IMG/VR virus record: IMGVR_UViG_3300030708_001092
Span: 1-37,941 of that record
DNA: 37,941 bases
Source of the DNA: a virus
Lineage: Duplodnaviria > Caudoviricetes
Reading direction: 5' to 3' (one strand)
Shown here: positions 11,679 through 20,600 of the stretch, in pieces
Numbering within the stretch: the stretch's first letter is position 1
Layout: every line of letters begins with the position of its first letter
Notes under the pieces: model-generated
Database searches by the model: none
Told to the model about the DNA's origin: nothing
Seen by the model: the letters and a program-made list of their open reading frames with translations, nothing else
Made by a program: the position numbers and the translations under genes

Positions 11679-14105
11679 ATGGCCAGTTACTCTGCTGTTA
11701 TTGATCTGCGTGTAAATGGCGAGAAGAAGATAGATAGCGTTGTAGCTAAAGTTAATAGAATTAACGGCTTAATAAGAGGTTTAAAACCAGTACCAGATAT
11801 CTTTCAAAAACAGAGAGGAGGCACTGAAGCATTTAGAAATCAAATCAATGCTTTAAAACAAACTTTAAGTGAAACATTAGCAACATTCGGACAAACTGGT
11901 AAGGTTACAGGTTTTTCAAAAACTATTGGAGGTTTAAACTCTCAATTAGCAACATTTCGGAGTGTAGCTAATAGTGCAAAAGCTGGTAGTCAGCAATTTA
12001 CACAGGCATTAACCGCAGGAGAAAATGCTTCTCGTCAATTATTAAAAGCAGAATTAGAACGTCTTAAGTCATTACAAAATTTATATCAAACAAACGCAAA
12101 ATTAGTTAAAGGATCTAGTGCAGGAATTGGTAAACAATTAACAGAGGTATTGAAAATTGGAAATACAATTCCAAAAACTACTGCTGCTCTTAATAATTAT
12201 AAAATGGAACTCGAAAGAATAATAAGTCTTGTCGAGATAGGTAGTAAAGAATATAAAGAATTAGAAGTAGCAATAGCCAATGTTAATAAGCAATTAGATA
12301 GAACAAAACCAGTAAAAACTCAAACTGATAAAAAATTACAAGTTGAAAAAAAAGTTACACAAGAGATGTCAAAACAAAAACAGCTTGAAATGGATTTATT
12401 TAAACAGCGTAGAAAAAATATAAGAGATAGAGAAAGAACTGCTAAACAACAAAGACAAGGTAGATTATTAGGTGCTGGTTTTCCTCTGTTATTTGGTGGT
12501 GGAATAGGTTCTATTGGTGGATCGTTAGCTGGTAGTTTTCTTGCCAAGCCTGGTGAAGAATTTGGAGCACAAATTTTTGGAAGTGCGATTGGACAACAAA
12601 TTGAAACTTTAATAAAAAGAGCAAACGCATTAGGAGATGCAGTAGATCAAATAAGTTTTGAAAAACTTGAAGAACAAAGCATTATTATTAGTGGAGAACT
12701 AAGAGCACAAGTTGAACTGCTTAAAGAATTAGGACAAGCAGATAGAGCAAGAGCAGTTTTAGCTGATCAGGTATTTAAAAGAACTGGTGCTAATGCTGAT
12801 GTTCAGAGAGATATAAATAGACAAGTGCAACTTCTTAATGCAGGATTTAGTGAGCTTGTTAATAGTGCTGGTACAACTTTAGCAATTATTGGTGGCCCAT
12901 TATTAACAGCAGTAGGGGCTTTATCTGCTGGAGTTTCTTTATTCTTTAGAGGTTTTAATACTCTGGCTACTGGAATAAGAAATTTAATTCCAGATTTACC
13001 TGTTGTTGATGAGTTTTTTGAAAGATTTAATAAAAGAATACAAGAAGCAATAGGTAATACTCAAAAATTAAGAAGAGAAATTGATTTAGCAGCAGATGTA
13101 CTTAATACAGAATTAAGTATTAAACAACAACAAACTGTTGGAGATGATGCTAGAACTTTTGATGCTCAAAGAAAAAATCTAGAATTAGAAAAAAGAATCA
13201 TTGATCTTAGAAATAATGTTGCCAGAAAAGAAGCATTGGAAGGAGTACAAGATTCTGGTGTAAGAGAAAAGATAAATCAGAAATTTGATATTCAGAAAGA
13301 TTTAGAGCTAGATTCTATAGATAAACAGCTTACAATAATTGATCAAAAAGAGGCATCAATAAATAGTAAGTTAGAAAGACGATTGAACTTTACAACTTCT
13401 ATAAATGGAATAAATAAAAAAATTGTTGGTGCGAATAGAGCAGAAGATGAACAACTTGCAGCTAGGTTAGAATTTGAGAAAACAAAACTTGGTATTCAAT
13501 TCCAGCTAGGTGAAGATTTAAGAGCAGCACAATCTGTAGAACAAGAGATGTTGTTAACCAAACAAGCAATACAAGATATAGATAGTGCAAGAATAATTCT
13601 TGGAGAAAAATTATTTAATATTTCAGAAAAAATGAAAACTAATTTTGAATTAGTAGGAGAAACTATTGCTTCTGGTGTTACTGATAATATAAGTGCTGCA
13701 ATATTACAAACAAAAACTTTAGGTGAAGCTGCTAAAAACATATTAAATGATTTGGCTAATACATTAGTAAAACTTGGTGTAAACACTATTTTAGGAAGTT
13801 TTGCCCCTGGAATTTTTGGTGGTCTACCAATGTTGAAGTTTGCTAGAGGTGGCCGACCTCCAACAGGTAAAGCATCTCTTGTAGGGGAAAAAGGCCCAGA
13901 ATTGTTTGTACCAAGAAGAACTGGTACTGTTGTTCCTAATGATAAATTAGGTGGAGGCAGCACAAATATAAATGTAAATATTGACGCTTCTGGATCGTCT
14001 GTCCAAGGTGATGCACAACAAAGTAAAGAACTTGGCAGAGCTATTTCAGCAGCGATACAATCAGAATTATTAAAACAAAAACGACCAGGAGGTTTATTAA
14101 CATAA
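11679..14105 (+). CDS. Tape measure protein
   Basis: 808 aa helical; C-terminal FARGG...LVGEKGPELF...RPGGLL. Confidence 0.95.
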   Translation: MASYSAVIDLRVNGEKKIDSVVAKVNRINGLIRGLKPVPDIFQKQRGGTEAFRNQINALKQTLSETLATFGQTGKVTGFSKTIGGLNSQLATFRSVANSAKAGSQQFTQALTAGENASRQLLKAELERLKSLQNLYQTNAKLVKGSSAGIGKQLTEVLKIGNTIPKTTAALNNYKMELERIISLVEIGSKEYKELEVAIANVNKQLDRTKPVKTQTDKKLQVEKKVTQEMSKQKQLEMDLFKQRRKNIRDRERTAKQQRQGRLLGAGFPLLFGGGIGSIGGSLAGSFLAKPGEEFGAQIFGSAIGQQIETLIKRANALGDAVDQISFEKLEEQSIIISGELRAQVELLKELGQADRARAVLADQVFKRTGANADVQRDINRQVQLLNAGFSELVNSAGTTLAIIGGPLLTAVGALSAGVSLFFRGFNTLATGIRNLIPDLPVVDEFFERFNKRIQEAIGNTQKLRREIDLAADVLNTELSIKQQQTVGDDARTFDAQRKNLELEKRIIDLRNNVARKEALEGVQDSGVREKINQKFDIQKDLELDSIDKQLTIIDQKEASINSKLERRLNFTTSINGINKKIVGANRAEDEQLAARLEFEKTKLGIQFQLGEDLRAAQSVEQEMLLTKQAIQDIDSARIILGEKLFNISEKMKTNFELVGETIASGVTDNISAAILQTKTLGEAAKNILNDLANTLVKLGVNTILGSFAPGIFGGLPMLKFARGGRPPTGKASLVGEKGPELFVPRRTGTVVPNDKLGGGSTNINVNIDASGSSVQGDAQQSKELGRAISAAIQSELLKQKRPGGLLT

Positions 14106-14446
14106 TGGCTACTTTCCCTAGTTATAATCCTGTTTTTTCTGCAAGTAAAACTGATATTACAAATACTAGAACAGTTCAGTTTGGTGATGGCTACCAACAA
14201 AGATTTACTTTTGGTATAAATCAAAAAGCAAAACAATGGAGTTTAACATTTAATGAGAATGATGAAGATACTGCTGAGATAGAAACATTTTTAGAAGCAA
14301 GAAAAGTTGATGGAGCATCTTTTGATTGGTCGCCTCCAGATTCATCTACTACATTTAAATGGGTATGCCCTTCGTTTACTAAGGAAATATTTGAATTTGA
14401 TAGAAATAGAATAAATGCAACATTTACACAAGTATTTGAACCCTAA
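14105..14446 (+). CDS. Distal tail protein (lambda gpM-like)
   Basis: VQFGDGYQQR, FDWSPP, ATFTQVFEP. Confidence 0.92.
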   Translation: MATFPSYNPVFSASKTDITNTRTVQFGDGYQQRFTFGINQKAKQWSLTFNENDEDTAEIETFLEARKVDGASFDWSPPDSSTTFKWVCPSFTKEIFEFDRNRINATFTQVFEP

Positions 14447-15429: not shown

Positions 15430-16130
15430 GTGATTGGAAAGAAGCTGCTCTTAGTCATGCAAAAGTGGAAGATCCCAAAGAATCTGTTGGTCTTTTGCTA
15501 AATGTAAAAGGAAAAGAAAGATATTATCCCTGCAATAATCTTTCTATGACTTCATATCAATGTTTCATTCTCGATCCAATTGATTATGTAAAAGCTGATT
15601 CTGTCGGTGAGATTACTGGAATTGTTCATAGTCATCCAGTTACTCCCCCAACTCCTAGCCAAGCAGATTTAATAAGCTGTGAAAACTCTAATTTACCTTG
15701 GCATATTGTTAATCCAAAAACAGAACAATGGGGTTATTGCGAGCCAAGTGGTTATAAAGCTCCATTGTTAGGAAGAGAATGGGTATGGGGGATAACAGAT
15801 TGTTGGTCATTAGTTGTTGATTGGTATAAAGAAGAAAAAAATATTGAATTATTAGATTATCAAAGACCAGCAAAAGTAGAAGATTTTTTAGCAGATCCAG
15901 TGTTTGAAAGGTATTTACCAAGTAGAGGTTTTAGATTATTAACTCCAGATGAAGAATTAATAAATGGTGATGTTTTAGCAATGAGTATCTTTGGACAAGG
16001 ATTAAATCATGTGGCTATTTTTTTAGATGGGGATGTTTTACATCATTTAGCAGATAGACTATCTTGTAGAGAGCCATACTCACCTTGGTTGTTAAAATGT
16101 ACAGGAGGGCGGTATCGTTATGTTGCGTAA
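15426..16130 (+). CDS. Tail tip assembly protein (gpK-like; JAB + NlpC/P60)
   Basis: PKES, HSHP..PSQAD; DCWSLV, NHVAIF, LHH. Confidence 0.93.
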   Translation: MSDWKEAALSHAKVEDPKESVGLLLNVKGKERYYPCNNLSMTSYQCFILDPIDYVKADSVGEITGIVHSHPVTPPTPSQADLISCENSNLPWHIVNPKTEQWGYCEPSGYKAPLLGREWVWGITDCWSLVVDWYKEEKNIELLDYQRPAKVEDFLADPVFERYLPSRGFRLLTPDEELINGDVLAMSIFGQGLNHVAIFLDGDVLHHLADRLSCREPYSPWLLKCTGGRYRYVA

Positions 16131-16755
16131 ATTAAAGCTATATGGAGAATTGGCTAAATTTGTAGGCCATAAAGAGTTTGAAGTAAAAGTGCACAATTTA
16201 CCTCAAGCTATTAGTTTTTTAGTAAATAATTTTCCAGAAGTTGAAGCATATATGAACCCCAAACTTTATCAAGTAAAAATTGGTAATTATGAAATAAATA
16301 AAGATGAAATAAATTATCCAATAGGACAGCAGGATATTCATATTGTTCCAGTAATCCAAGGAGCAGGAGGCGGCTTTGGTCGTTTTCTTACGGGAGCATT
16401 TCTAATTGGTGCGTCATTCTTTTTCCCAGGAGCAGGATTGTTTGGAACTACTGGATTATTTGGTGCTGGTGCTGCTGGCGTTGTTGGTGTTTCGTCAACA
16501 GGTGTATTACTTGGAACAGCTATAGGTACAGGACTAAGTGCTATTGGTGCTGGTATGGTTCTTTCAGGTGTTGGCGAAATGTTATTTCCAACTCAACAGC
16601 CTACATTTGAAGATAATCCACAAATTTCGTTTAACTTTGCTGGTACGCAAAACACAGCAAGGGCTGGTACTCCAATTCCTATTGTTTATGGTGAAATATT
16701 TACAGGATCAGTTGTTATTAGTGGTGATGTAGATACAGAAGCGGTACAAGTATGA
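16120..16755 (+). CDS. Tail tip assembly protein (gpI-like, ubiquitin-like N-domain)
   Basis: KLYGEL, IHIVPVIQGAGG, GTPIPIVYGE. Confidence 0.92.
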   Translation: MLRKLKLYGELAKFVGHKEFEVKVHNLPQAISFLVNNFPEVEAYMNPKLYQVKIGNYEINKDEINYPIGQQDIHIVPVIQGAGGGFGRFLTGAFLIGASFFFPGAGLFGTTGLFGAGAAGVVGVSSTGVLLGTAIGTGLSAIGAGMVLSGVGEMLFPTQQPTFEDNPQISFNFAGTQNTARAGTPIPIVYGEIFTGSVVISGDVDTEAVQV

Positions 16756-19700
16756 CTAACAGCAAGTATATACAAGGATCAGGCGGTGGCGGTTGTTTTA
16801 CTGGTGATACTCCTGTATCTATTCCAAGTGGTTCAAAACCAATAAAAGAAATAAATGTTGGTGATATTGTTTGCAGTTTCGATGATAAAGGTACTATTTA
16901 TCATGCCAAAGTTTTAAAGGTACATGAGCATGAAAACGAACCAGTTGTTAAGTACACAATCTGGGGTGGTAAAACTTTAGATGCAACACCGAATCATTGG
17001 GTATTAAATCAATTTAATGCGTTTGTTGGTATAGATACTTTAGGAACTGATGATTGTTTAGTTGATGAATTTGGTCATTTAAGACCAATTATTGAACGTA
17101 AAGCTATTGGAACACATACTGTTTACAACTTAACTGTTGAAGGACATCATACTTTTATTGCTAATACAATTCGTGTTCATAATGCAGGATTAGGGCCAAA
17201 TATCGCTGGTGCTGGTGGTGGAGGTAAAAAAGGAGGTGGAGGTAGTCCTCCGACTATTACTCCAGATAATTTACATAGTAAGCAGTTTGCTACTTTACTT
17301 GATCTTATTTCTGAAGGTGAGATTGAAGGTTTTTCAAGTCCATCAAAAGAAGGTAGAACTAAAGGAACGACTGCATATTTTAATGCTGCAAAGAAAGATA
17401 TTTTTTTAGATGATACCCCTATATTGGCTGCTACTGCTGATTCGACTAATCCACAAAATACTGAATTTAATCATCAAAATGTAGATTTTGACGTACGTTT
17501 TGGAACCACTTCTCAAACTAAAATGTCAAAAGTTTCGGGAAGTTCTTCTGTTTTCAATGTTGGATTAGAAGTCTCAAATGGTGTACCTGTAACTAGACAG
17601 CTTACTAATAATACGGATCTTGATGCAGTAAAAGTTACTCTTACTGCACCTCTTTTACAACAAATGGAAGATGATGGAGATATTGTAGGTTCTTCGATAA
17701 GTTTTGATATTCAACTTCAGTACAATGGCGGTGGTTTCACAACATTAGTTTCTGATACGATCAGAGGACGAACAGCAGATGCTTATAACAGAGAATATAG
17801 AATTGATCTTACAGGTGCTCATCCTGTTGATGTTCGTGTCGTAAAAACATCTGCAAATAGTACAGACAAAATATCACGAGATTTAATTTGGCAATCTTTT
17901 TCAGAATTAGAAGATGATTCAAGCACATATCCTGATTGTGCATATACAAGATTACGTTTAGATTCAGAATTTTTTAGTAGGATTCCTGATAGAAAATTTA
18001 AAATTAGAGGAGTAAAAGTAAGGATTCCAGGTGCAGGAGCTAACTCATCTGGTACTCCAACTGTAGATTTACAAACTGGAAGAGTTGTTTATCCTGCTGG
18101 TTATATTTTTAATGGTGTAATGGGTGCTGCTCAATGGACAACGTGCCCTGCTCTAATATTGCTGGATCTTTTAACTAACACTAGATATGGGTTAGGTAAT
18201 CATATTGTTGACAGTAATTTAGATTTATTTTCTTTTGTAACTGCAAGTAAGTTTTCAAATGAGCTTGTTGATGATGGATTTGGTGGACAGGAAGCTAGAT
18301 TTGCTTGCAACATAAATATCCAGACAAGTGTTGAGGCATTTGATGTTATAAGAACTTTGTCAGGAATAATGAGATGTATGCCAATTTGGTCTGAAGGAGC
18401 ATTACTTCTTACTCAAGATAGTCCAAAAGATCCAAGTTATTTATTTACTTTGGCTAATGTCGGACAAGAAGGGTTTAGTTATACAGGTAGCAGTTTGAAA
18501 ACTAGAGCTACAGTTGTTGCAGTCTCTTTTTTCAATATGGAGACTAGAGATTTAGATTTTGAGGAAGTTGAGGCAGAAACAGCTTATAAAAATAAATATG
18601 GACATAATTTGAAAAGAGTTAAAGCATTAGGTTGTACAAGTAGAGGTCAAGCAAGAAGATTTGCAAAAGCAATATTATTTACAGAACAAAGAGAAACAGA
18701 AGTAGTTAATTTCTCTGCTTCAATGGAATCAGGAGTAGTTGTTAGACCTGGAACGATTATTAGTGTTGCCGATCCAGCAAGATCAGGTGTAAGAAGAGGG
18801 GGAAGGATTGCTAGTGCTACAACAACTCAAATAACTGTAGATAATTCGGATGCAACTGATTTAACTGCTGACAATAATCCTAAATTAAGTGTAATACTAC
18901 CAAATGGGACAGTTGAGACTAAAAATATAACTGCAATATCAGGTAAAGTAATTACTTTGGCTAGTGCTTTAAGTCAAACACCAAATTCTAATAGTGTCTG
19001 GTTACTTGAAAATGATACTGTTTCTGCTCAGTCTTTCAGAGTTATGTCTGTTGAAGAATTTGATGGAATTAATTACAAAATAACAGCATTAGCTTATGTA
19101 AATGAAAAATATGCGTTTATCGAAGATAACCAACCAATTCCAGTACAACAGATAACAACTTTAAATCTTCTCAAACCACCTCCTAGTGGTTTATCAGCTA
19201 ATGAAACTATAGTCCTTATAAATAATCAACCTGTATCTAAATTAATTATTAGATGGCAGCCTGTAACTGGTGTTTCAAATTATTTAGTTAATTATAGATT
19301 TAAAGATAATAATGTTGTCTCTGCTACAACCAGTAGTCCTGATTTTGAAATTATTAATTCACAAGTAGGATCTTATGAAGTATCTGTTCGCAGTTTAAAT
19401 GCTGCATTAGAAGCTAGTGCTACAGATGCTAGTGAAACTTTTACAACTATCGGAAAAACTGCTGTTCCTACTGATGTATCAGGTCTTACTGCTGAACCAA
19501 TAAGTGAAAAATTAGTAAGATTACGTTGGAATTTAGCAACAGATTTAGATGTTACTCATGGTGGTCGTGTATATGTTAGACATTCTTCAAAAACTGATGG
19601 AACGGGATCTTTTTCTAACGCTACTGATTTAATTCAGGCACTTTCAGGTAATACCACAACTGCGGAAGTTCCGTATCTTGAGGGTGAATATATTTTAAAA

Positions 19701-20600
19701 TTTCAAGATGATGGAGGTAGATTTAGTGCTGGTGAAGCAAGTGTAATTTTAGATTTACCAGATAATTTAGATGCAAAATTAATTCAGACAAGAAGAGAAG
19801 ATCAAGATGTACCTAAGTTTCAAGGAACAAAAACTAATGTTGCCTTTGATGCTACAACAAACTCTTTAAATTTAACTGGTGTTGGGCAGTTTGATAGTAT
19901 TACCGATTTAGATTTAGTTTCTTCTATAGATGATATTGGAGGCATTGCTCCGCTAGGTACTTATGAGTTTGGTGGATCGGCTGGAAGTACAACTTTAGAT
20001 TTAGGAGATGTATATAGCTTAGATTTAAAACGTCATTTTTTAACAGAAGCATTTTATCCATCTGATTTATTTGATTCAATACCAGACTTAGATGCAAGAG
20101 GTGATTTTGAAGGATTAACTGCAACAAAAGTAAATGCAACTATGCAAGTTCGAGTTACTCAGGATGATCCGAATAGTGGATCTCCTACATACACCGCTTT
20201 TCAAACTTTTGCAAATGGAGTTTATAAAGGAAGAGGTTTTCAATTTAAAGTCAATTTAACAAGTAATGATCCAGCACAAGATATTAGAGTATTTCAGTTA
20301 GGATATACAGCTACTCTTCACAGAAGAACTGAACAAAGTGCTGAAACTATAGCAAGTGGAGCAGGAGCAAAGGCAGTTACGTTCCAACATCCTTTCTTTA
20401 CAGGGACTTCTGGGCTTGGGGGTGTAAATAGTAGTTTGCCTTCTGTTGGTATTACAGCTTATAATATGGCATCAGGAGATTTCTTCGAGGTTACTAATGT
20501 TACTGGAACAGGATTTAGTGTTCACTTCAAAAATTCATCAAATAATTCAGTTGATAGAAATTTTACATATCAAGCTGTCGGATTTGGTAAAGCAAGTTAG
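16752..20600 (+). CDS. Central tail fibre/host specificity protein (gpJ-like) with N-terminal Hint domain
   Basis: DNLHS, LDLISEGEIEG, RYGLG, GCTSRGQARR, FN3-like repeats. Confidence 0.95.
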   Translation: MTNSKYIQGSGGGGCFTGDTPVSIPSGSKPIKEINVGDIVCSFDDKGTIYHAKVLKVHEHENEPVVKYTIWGGKTLDATPNHWVLNQFNAFVGIDTLGTDDCLVDEFGHLRPIIERKAIGTHTVYNLTVEGHHTFIANTIRVHNAGLGPNIAGAGGGGKKGGGGSPPTITPDNLHSKQFATLLDLISEGEIEGFSSPSKEGRTKGTTAYFNAAKKDIFLDDTPILAATADSTNPQNTEFNHQNVDFDVRFGTTSQTKMSKVSGSSSVFNVGLEVSNGVPVTRQLTNNTDLDAVKVTLTAPLLQQMEDDGDIVGSSISFDIQLQYNGGGFTTLVSDTIRGRTADAYNREYRIDLTGAHPVDVRVVKTSANSTDKISRDLIWQSFSELEDDSSTYPDCAYTRLRLDSEFFSRIPDRKFKIRGVKVRIPGAGANSSGTPTVDLQTGRVVYPAGYIFNGVMGAAQWTTCPALILLDLLTNTRYGLGNHIVDSNLDLFSFVTASKFSNELVDDGFGGQEARFACNINIQTSVEAFDVIRTLSGIMRCMPIWSEGALLLTQDSPKDPSYLFTLANVGQEGFSYTGSSLKTRATVVAVSFFNMETRDLDFEEVEAETAYKNKYGHNLKRVKALGCTSRGQARRFAKAILFTEQRETEVVNFSASMESGVVVRPGTIISVADPARSGVRRGGRIASATTTQITVDNSDATDLTADNNPKLSVILPNGTVETKNITAISGKVITLASALSQTPNSNSVWLLENDTVSAQSFRVMSVEEFDGINYKITALAYVNEKYAFIEDNQPIPVQQITTLNLLKPPPSGLSANETIVLINNQPVSKLIIRWQPVTGVSNYLVNYRFKDNNVVSATTSSPDFEIINSQVGSYEVSVRSLNAALEASATDASETFTTIGKTAVPTDVSGLTAEPISEKLVRLRWNLATDLDVTHGGRVYVRHSSKTDGTGSFSNATDLIQALSGNTTTAEVPYLEGEYILKFQDDGGRFSAGEASVILDLPDNLDAKLIQTRREDQDVPKFQGTKTNVAFDATTNSLNLTGVGQFDSITDLDLVSSIDDIGGIAPLGTYEFGGSAGSTTLDLGDVYSLDLKRHFLTEAFYPSDLFDSIPDLDARGDFEGLTATKVNATMQVRVTQDDPNSGSPTYTAFQTFANGVYKGRGFQFKVNLTSNDPAQDIRVFQLGYTATLHRRTEQSAETIASGAGAKAVTFQHPFFTGTSGLGGVNSSLPSVGITAYNMASGDFFEVTNVTGTGFSVHFKNSSNNSVDRNFTYQAVGFGKAS
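16794..17183 (+). other. Hint (intein-like/BIL) domain, 130 aa, no homing endonuclease
   Basis: CFTGDTPV (block A), TPNH (block B), VYNLTVEGHHTFIAN-RVHN (blocks F/G); +1 residue is Ala. Confidence 0.92.

What the first reader, a model, noticed from the sequence alone, without database searches (positions are those of the whole stretch)
16752..17240. Self-cleaving Hint/BIL domain at the N-terminus of central tail fibre gpJ, bracketed by duplicated IxG[AS]GGG sites
Seen: gpJ reads MTNSKY-IQGSGGGG-[C15...H143N144]-AGLGPN-IAGAGGGG-KKGGGG before the normal J start (PDNLHS). Hint blocks A, B (TPNH), F and G are intact, there is no endonuclease, and the +1 residue is Ala. Known: canonical splicing needs Cys/Ser/Thr at +1; A-type BIL domains instead cleave, and can transfer their N-flank to a nucleophile via the Cys1 thioester. 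Inference: this is a domesticated auto-processing module rather than a selfish intein. It could release mature J, or ligate a Gly-terminated 14-mer with a ubiquitin-like end onto a virion or host protein. It may matter for defences that conjugate Ubls to the central tail fibre.
Basis: partly seen in the sequence, partly recalled or inferred. Interest (0 to 1): 0.88.

Follow-up and report, generated by a model that had tools for sequence, protein, structure and literature searches.

The report
Self-cutting domain in phage tail-tip leader
This uncultured phage's tail-tip protein J carries an intein-like domain between two copies of a short motif that also ends the neighbouring ubiquitin-like tail protein; close relatives lack the domain, which likely cuts itself off and leaves a leader that the phage's own protease would then trim.

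Summary
Real. J residues 15-144 are a Hint domain closest to A-type BILs: Cys1, block-B Thr/His, His-Asn, +1 Ala, no endonuclease. It is optional: 56 of 80 J-core relatives lack it, 36 of them at 80-89% identity, yet it is under purifying selection. The IxG[AS]G motif is not a target-site duplication. It is the native J leader (56 of 56 Hint-less relatives; 17 of 22 cultured lambda-like J) and matches the C-terminal tail of gpI's ubiquitin-like domain, which lambda gpK is reported to cleave. Best reading: the Hint releases J at Asn144-Ala145, and the second motif restores a normal pro-J that gpK likely trims (co-folding only weak support). Related Hints sit in glycine runs of gpI, a P22-gp7-like protein and gp38-like adhesins, so glycine-to-glycine splicing stays open. 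Nothing supports peptide transfer to host proteins or an anti-defence role. No paper found in 10 searches.

The parts
14105..14446 (+). gpM-like minor tail protein (context)
   Evidence: Pfam PF05939
14446..15429 (+). gpL-like hub protein (context)
   Evidence: PF05100, TIGR01600
15426..16130 (+). gpK: JAB protease (E19, H68, H70, D81) plus NlpC/P60; candidate enzyme for the motif
   Evidence: PF14464 and PF00877; E19, H68, S69, H70, D81 invariant in 49 rows chosen by the HSH..D pattern
16120..16755 (+). gpI: beta-grasp (Ubl) domain aa 1-81, then hydrophobic/plug part
   Evidence: phrog_32; model pLDDT 89; Foldseek SAMP1/MoaD
16354..16368 (+). gpI Ubl C-terminal tail IQGAG (aa 79-83), same motif as in J
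16752..16793 (+). J N-leader aa 1-14, with motif copy 1 IQGSG (16770-16784) and Gly run ending at Gly14 (-1)
   Evidence: resembles the leader of Hint-less relatives
16794..17183 (+). Hint domain aa 15-144: C15, T79, H82, N126, H133, H143, N144
17184..17201 (+). spacer AGLGPN (aa 145-150); +1 Ala, +2 Gly
   Evidence: +1 Ala 151/153, +2 Gly 153/153
17202..17243 (+). motif copy 2 IAGAG plus Gly/Lys run (aa 151-164); predicted gpK site and start of mature J
   Evidence: motif in 152/153; co-folding 0.42 vs control 0.02, weak
17262..20600 (+). J core from PDNLHS (aa 171)
   Evidence: phrog_31, PF24801, PF13550

Best explanation
J begins with an optional A-type-BIL-like Hint domain set in the glycine run of its natural leader; the domain likely cuts itself off at Asn144-Ala145, freeing a J chain with the same short leader as Hint-less relatives, which the phage's gpK protease would then trim at the second IxG[AS] motif. 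Steps: (1, shown) Hint-less J starts M-x(2-8)-[IV]xG[AS]-Gly run, the same motif that ends gpI's Ubl domain. (2, inferred) gpK, reported to cut lambda gpI's Ubl off, also cuts J there, giving a Gly-Lys-rich start like lambda J, which has no leader. (3, shown) The Hint sits in the Gly run after the motif; in 49 of 68 distant J clusters, this one's lineage included, a spacer and second motif follow it. (4, inferred) Cys15 forms a thioester with Gly14 and Asn144 cyclises; the thioester is hydrolysed or, in part, attacked by the freed Ala145 amine. Either product keeps motif 2 and matures to the same J. (5, inferred) The domain persists like a mini-intein: it must stay active to clear itself, is lost by deletion between glycine runs and moves by recombination, with no shown benefit.
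For: Hint fold and catalytic set. 197 of 200 homologue rows fit Gly-Cys...His-Asn, all 130 aa; 68 distant J clusters: -1 Gly 66, His-Asn 67, +1 Gly 62/Ala 4/Gln 1/Lys 1, never Cys/Ser/Thr. C-terminal release gives 6-7 residues before motif 2 (152 of 153), like the 5-8 residue leaders of the closest Hint-less alleles. Motif 2 is kept more strictly than motif 1 (152 vs 143 of 153; six of the ten exceptions are one lineage). Motif in 56 of 56 Hint-less relatives, 97 of 109 Hint-blind J (loose pattern), 17 of 22 cultured lambda-like J; lambda, P400 and Swain lack it and start M-G-K-G. gpI aa 1-81 is a SAMP/MoaD-type fold ending in the motif. gpK cleaves lambda gpI's Ubl (conference report PMC12908700); lambda gpI is resolved from residue 101, its G-A is at 96-97. 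gpK JAB + J145-178 co-fold: 0.42, best control 0.02, 'weak support' (mark reached by 116 of 157 solved complexes and 2 of 215 mismatches; at 0.60 or under by only 18 of 157 and by both mismatches; runs share at least 70% of contacts; partner pLDDT 51-52). Purifying selection; gain, loss and swaps.
Against: No biochemistry; no published evidence that gpK cuts any J. The residue after G-[AS] does not co-vary between gpI and J within either sample (Fisher p 0.31, 57 pairs; p 0.12, 17 pairs; the pooled p 4e-7 is confounded by lineage). Several phages with an intact JAB have J without the motif (L324, L341, L370, L375). If gpK removes everything before motif 2, the strict conservation of Cys15 and of motif 1 needs an extra assumption (coupled chemistry, or gpK acting only late in assembly). 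J-type Hints keep H60, W71, W83, P112, R141 far more than other Hints (89-100% of 71 vs 12-55% of 137), which may point to a function beyond removal, though J-type rows are also closer to the query. T1 J is modelled from residue 13, which fits trimming but equally a flexible end.
Confidence: 0.5

Rival explanations
1. Poly-glycine intein: the family mainly splices, joining a Gly thioester to the freed Gly/Ala amine (aminolysis), so it can sit in any glycine run of a virion protein and restore it.
For: Cys1 and -1 Gly nearly invariant. In 19 of 68 J clusters the Hint is a clean insertion with no second motif, so splicing would rebuild the empty allele. Same Gly|Hint|Gly-run-Lys layout in 26 gpI proteins, in four P22-gp7-like proteins, and inside gp38-like adhesins where chain continuity should matter. 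Title of Dassa 2004 reports BIL splicing without a +1 nucleophile (reference list).
Against: A second motif would be unnecessary if splicing were efficient, yet it is present behind many unrelated spacers in 49 of 68 clusters. In J, gpI and gp7-like proteins plain C-terminal cleavage already yields a plausible mature start. The review read says A-type BILs cleave but do not ligate.
Confidence: 0.25
2. Peptide or Ubl transfer: the Gly14 thioester hands the Ubl-tail-like peptide, or in gpI the whole Ubl, to a lysine or other nucleophile on a virion or host protein, perhaps against Bil-type defence.
For: Best fold match is BIL2 of the Tetrahymena BUBL1 locus, which conjugates its upstream Ubl by isopeptide bond; 26 gpI proteins have a true Ubl-Gly-run-Hint layout; motif 1 is kept in 143 of 153; Bil targets the central tail fibre; J-specific conserved residues.
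Against: No acceptor identified. The N-flank is 9-30 residues of variable sequence, down to MGGG in gp7-like proteins. Motif 1 is the relaxed copy. In gpI the Ubl motif is 8-18 residues before the Hint and the JAB is intact in 3 of 3 loci, so the Ubl would likely be cut off first. Of BIL2's two zinc histidines only one has a His counterpart (my count). No defence-system co-occurrence was tested.
Confidence: 0.1
3. The Hint stays on J, or works after release, as a folded binding or chaperone module during tail-tip assembly; cleavage is slow or triggered.
For: Hint more conserved than the J core, gpI and gpK in the same loci (65-78% vs 32-60%); subfamily-specific residues.
Against: Loci were found with a Hint query, which inflates Hint identity; close relatives assemble without it; the invariant residues are mostly the catalytic ones.
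Confidence: 0.12
4. Decaying remnant, or an assembly or annotation artefact.
For: No cultured phage carries it; a few homologues are frameshifted.
Against: 515 IMG/VR stretches and 624 proteins match the query, which includes the J leader; all 80 and 120 listed carry the Hint; pN far below pS.
Confidence: 0.02

Closest known systems
A-type bacterial intein-like (BIL) domain, Clostridium thermocellum BIL (PDB 2LWY); Pfam PT-HINT PF07591
   Same: Best profile match (E 1e-18); about 130 aa, no endonuclease, Cys1, block-B His, His-Asn end, non-nucleophilic +1, variable flanks.
   Different: Sits in phage virion proteins, at a fixed glycine-run site next to a Ubl-tail-like motif; the window's sequence scores below the PT-HINT cut-off (26.7 vs 27.7).
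BUBL / BIL2 of Tetrahymena thermophila (PDB 6Y75, 6TMM)
   Same: Top fold match; Gly-Gly before residue 1; Ubl-related N-flank; gpI variants have Ubl then Hint.
   Different: In J the N-flank is a 14-residue peptide, not a folded Ubl; no downstream Ubl acceptor; second zinc His is Asn126 here.
Lambda gpK (JAB) / gpI (Ubl) processing pair
   Same: Gene order L-K-I-J, intact JAB, Ubl tail motif; cleavage of gpI reported, predicted by Iyer 2006.
   Different: Here J itself carries the motif (twice) and a Hint; lambda J has neither. Cleavage of J by gpK is my inference.
Class 1 mini-inteins (gp41-1, DnaB, RecA)
   Same: Hint fold, Cys1, His-Asn, allelic presence/absence, purifying selection.
   Different: No Cys/Ser/Thr at +1 (2 Ser in 153; 0 in 68 distant clusters); site is a glycine run in a leader, not a conserved enzyme motif.

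Membership tests
A-type BIL | Hint fold without endonuclease | tested here: met
   130 aa in 153 of 153
A-type BIL | Cys1, block-B Thr-x-x-His, terminal His-Asn | tested here: met
   C15, T79, H82, H143, N144
A-type BIL | +1 residue usually not Cys/Ser/Thr | tested here: met
   Ala here
A-type BIL | Closer in sequence to A-type BILs than to inteins | tested here: inconclusive
   profile best hit 2LWY (1e-18) ahead of gp41-1 intein (2e-15); single sequence ranks DnaE and gp41-1 inteins first; PT-HINT below cut-off
A-type BIL | Located in variable regions of non-conserved bacterial proteins | tested here: not met
   host is a conserved phage structural protein, though the site is its variable leader; feature as stated in PMC7765530
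A-type BIL | Auto-cleavage activity | not testable with these tools
   needs expression and MS
Class 1 intein | +1 Cys/Ser/Thr | tested here: not met
Class 1 intein | Precise empty alleles | tested here: inconclusive
   empty alleles exist but this cassette includes a spacer and second motif; 19 of 68 distant clusters are clean insertions
BUBL | Folded Ubl domain directly before the Hint | tested here: not met
   J N-flank is 14 aa, low pLDDT; met only loosely by gpI variants
gpK (JAB) substrate | Sequence like the gpI Ubl C-terminal tail | tested here: met
gpK (JAB) substrate | Binds and is cut by gpK | tested here: inconclusive
   co-folding weak support 0.42 vs 0.02; co-variation not significant within samples; cleavage untested

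The most novel reading that the evidence does not exclude
A family of endonuclease-free 'poly-glycine inteins' colonises the glycine-rich processing sites of phage virion proteins (J, gpI, gp7-like ejection proteins, gp38-like adhesins) and ligates Gly to Gly/Ala by aminolysis, or in gpI hands on an activated Ubl; and most lambda-like J proteins are made with a Ubl-tail-mimic leader that gpK removes, a second, unrecognised substrate of the phage ubiquitin-like system at the very protein that Bil defence attacks.
Probability: 0.25. Interest if true: 0.85.

Novelty: new variant of a known kind. Interest (0 to 1): 0.58.

Why it matters
The placement of a BIL-type Hint in virion proteins was not found in print (10 searches). 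More useful than the insert itself is what it exposes: a conserved J leader that copies gpI's ubiquitin-like tail, present in cultured T1-like and HK97-group phages, which makes 'gpK also matures J' directly testable in E. coli. If the family splices Gly to Gly without a side-chain nucleophile, it would be a natural ligation tool with simple junctions.

Tried and rejected
Target-site duplication: rejected; only 99 of 201 same-residue codons are identical between the two motif copies in 44 distinct pairs (0.49 vs 0.44 in cross-locus shuffles, 17 of 500 as high). Co-variation of gpI and J motifs as independent proof of a shared protease: not significant within either sample; the matching of the two J copies to each other (Lys at motif position 5 in both in 7 clusters) could also come from duplication. 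Hint replacing gpK: not supported; JAB motif intact in 3 of 3 gpI-Hint loci and in Hint-bearing J loci. BIL2-type zinc site: only one of two histidines. Cultured carrier: none; the only INPHARED match is an unrelated Vibrio phage Hint. Host: not established; capsid is 75% to marine virus AG-345-A17 and 29-35% to cyanophages; ten GTDB contigs with the Hint pattern are mostly MAG contigs of mixed taxa. A 301-genome search for more gpI loci gave little. The careful tree did not finish; the quick tree is used. Aranko 2013 was not held. Three papers with 'Hint domain' and 'phage tail' concern terminase, reductase or helicase inteins. No supplements were read; a mention there could be missed.

Full report
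Observation. The window is a near-complete uncultured siphovirus record (98% complete) with a lambda-like tail-tip operon M-L-K-I-J. J (16752-20600) starts with 14 residues ending in a glycine run, then a 130-residue Hint domain (16794-17183), then AGLGPN, a second IxG[AS]G motif, a Gly/Lys run and the J core at residue 171. The Hint passes the intein N- and C-terminal TIGRFAM cut-offs, folds as a Hint, and its best structural matches are Tetrahymena BIL2 and the C. thermocellum BIL; a 30-row profile ranks the latter first (E 1e-18).

How common, how conserved. The first 183 residues find 515 IMG/VR stretches (80 kept) and residues 1-160 find 624 proteins (120 listed). Of these 200 rows, 197 fit a pattern that demands Gly-Cys...His-Asn; two of the other three show it by eye and one is frameshifted. 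The 153 distinct cassettes are all 130 residues, with +1 Ala in 151 and Ser in 2, +2 Gly in 153. A full HMMER search of 50%-identity representatives (best 150) gave 71 J proteins, 68 complete at the N-end: -1 Gly 66, His-Asn 67, +1 Gly 62, Ala 4, Gln 1, Lys 1 (domain starts were snapped to the nearest Cys, so the Cys count is not independent). Against the window, near relatives have Hint pN 0.007-0.085 at pS 0.09-0.39; distant ones have pN 0.13-0.26 at saturated pS, while the J core has pN 0.36-0.50 (loci were found with a Hint query, which inflates Hint identity). It is a maintained, catalytically complete domain.

It is optional and mobile. Searching with the J core alone, 19 of the best 80 loci carry the Hint, 56 lack it (36 at 80-89% and 20 at 63-66% core identity) and 5 are cut off. 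In a sample drawn by a J-core DNA pattern, 8 of 117 distinct rows carry it (2 of 64 parts of the collection were scanned). A quick tree of 70 J cores needs 4 gains or losses, 2 forced by well-supported branches. Among 173 Hint-bearing J, some pairs share 94% of the Hint but 37% of the J core and others 65% and 91%; 15 of 26 strong Hint splits conflict with strong J splits, so Hint and core are reshuffled by recombination. Tandem Hints occur (P0001, P0190, P0197, P0327). No cultured phage has it.

What the motif is. The two copies are not DNA repeats. One copy is the normal start of J in this group: 56 of 56 Hint-less relatives, 97 of 109 rows with a closed 5' end in the Hint-blind sample (loose pattern), and 17 of 22 cultured lambda-like J that I read (two more have variants, and lambda, P400 and Swain start directly M-G-K-G). 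The same motif closes the first domain of gpI (IVPVIQGAG here). That domain models as a beta-grasp fold matching SAMP1 and MoaD, with the motif as its C-terminal tail. A 2025 conference report says lambda gpK cleaves the Ubl from gpI only after gpI joins the tail tip (PMC12908700, passages); Iyer 2006 predicted this (PMC1779556, passages). Lambda gpI has G-A at 96-97 and is resolved from 101 (PMC11101478, passages); gpK is not in the virion (PMC10721106, passages). I infer that J's leader is a second gpK site. Support is modest. Co-folding gpK's JAB domain with J145-178 and zinc gave 0.42 against a best control of 0.02, rated weak: that mark was reached by 116 of 157 solved complexes and 2 of 215 mismatches, but at 0.60 or under by only 18 of the 157 and by both mismatches; runs agreed in at least 70% of contacts, partner pLDDT 51-52. 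The residue after G-[AS] often matches between gpI and J in cultured phages (14 of 17), but not significantly within either sample (p 0.12 and 0.31). Some phages with an intact JAB have no J motif. T1 J is modelled from residue 13 (PMC11945409, passages), which is compatible but not proof.

Two layouts. In 19 of 68 distant clusters the Hint is a clean insertion in the glycine run (motif-Gly|Hint|Gly-run-Lys). In 49, including this lineage, a spacer and a second motif follow, and the spacers are of many unrelated sequences. In the window's family the second motif lies 6-7 residues after Asn144 and is present in 152 of 153, the first in 143 of 153. Release at Asn144 therefore yields a chain shaped like the Hint-less pro-J. 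A second motif would not be needed if splicing were efficient, so I take C-terminal cleavage as the working route here. Whether the Gly14 thioester is hydrolysed or captured by the Ala145 amine, motif 2 survives and the mature J would be the same. Keeping the Hint active is then needed if the 15-kDa domain must leave before gpK can act. These steps are inferred; none was tested at the bench.

The wider family. The same Gly|Hint|Gly-run-Lys layout occurs in gpI between the Ubl motif and the hydrophobic helices (28 of 86 proteins examined match a gpI profile, 26 shown with a full Hint, all with Gly at -1 and +1), at the start of four P22-gp7-like ejection proteins (MGGG|Hint|GGGGK) and inside gp38-like adhesins. 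That P22 gp7 loses an N-terminal leader is recalled, not from a call. The family seems to select glycine runs of virion proteins, which keeps amine-based splicing open; the adhesin cases are hard to explain by cleavage alone. On A-type BILs, a review says they cleave but do not ligate (PMC7765530, passages), while the title of Dassa 2004 in its reference list reports splicing without a +1 nucleophile; I did not see that paper or Aranko 2013 (recalled only).

Unexplained. Motif 1 and Cys15 are better kept than simple self-removal needs. J-type Hints also keep H60, W71, W83, P112 and R141 (89-100% of 71 domains vs 12-55% of 137 others).

Novelty. Ten full-text searches found no description of a Hint or intein in J, gpI or other tail-tip proteins, nor of gpK acting on J; the library lacks most subscription papers and no supplements were read. 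This scan has noted the J cassette repeatedly in other genomes, one note already mentioning the gpI copy; a word search found no note on the gpK-site reading. Verdict: a new variant of a known kind (A-type-BIL-like domain in a new setting), interest 0.58, mostly for the J leader hypothesis and the glycine-run family, both directly testable.

Noticed in passing
proteins P0281, P0328-P0354; loci L444-L446:5001-6314: A family of gpI proteins with the Hint between the Ubl motif and the hydrophobic helices, a BUBL-like layout in a phage; gpK JAB intact and J without motif or Hint in the three loci read.
   Followed up: partly
proteins P0364, P0365, P0367, P0368: P22-gp7-like DNA ejection proteins beginning MGGG|Hint|GGGGK.
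   Followed up: partly
proteins P0186-P0188, P0376-P0393: gp38-like polyglycine adhesins with an internal Hint (+1 Lys or Gly); would need splicing or retention.
   Followed up: no
proteins P0195, P0198, P0242, P0246, P0256 and others: Likely bacterial proteins with 2-5 tandem Hints joined only by K-G(1-4) linkers, followed in two scanned cases by a Tim44-like domain.
   Followed up: no
cultured phages, loci L289-L296 and L432-L443: Most lambda-like J proteins (T1-like JMPW1, HK446, Dhillonvirus, Burkholderia, Rhizobium, Vibrio phages) start with a leader resembling their gpI Ubl tail.
   Followed up: partly
window:14830-15240 (gpL aa ~130-265): gpL carries a Thr-rich insertion with a domain that matches cyanophage baseplate/fibre families (phrog_30742, phrog_677, phrog_708) and has His/Cys residues suggestive of a plastocyanin-like site (recalled).
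   Followed up: no
window:16927-16935 and 17127-17129 (J H60, N126): H60 aligns with zinc ligand H48 of Tetrahymena BIL2; the other ligand (H125) aligns with N126 (counted by hand; ligands).
   Followed up: partly
protein P0121: A near-identical cassette followed by a frameshift in the Gly/Lys run, giving a 218-aa product; sequencing error or slippage not decided.
   Followed up: no
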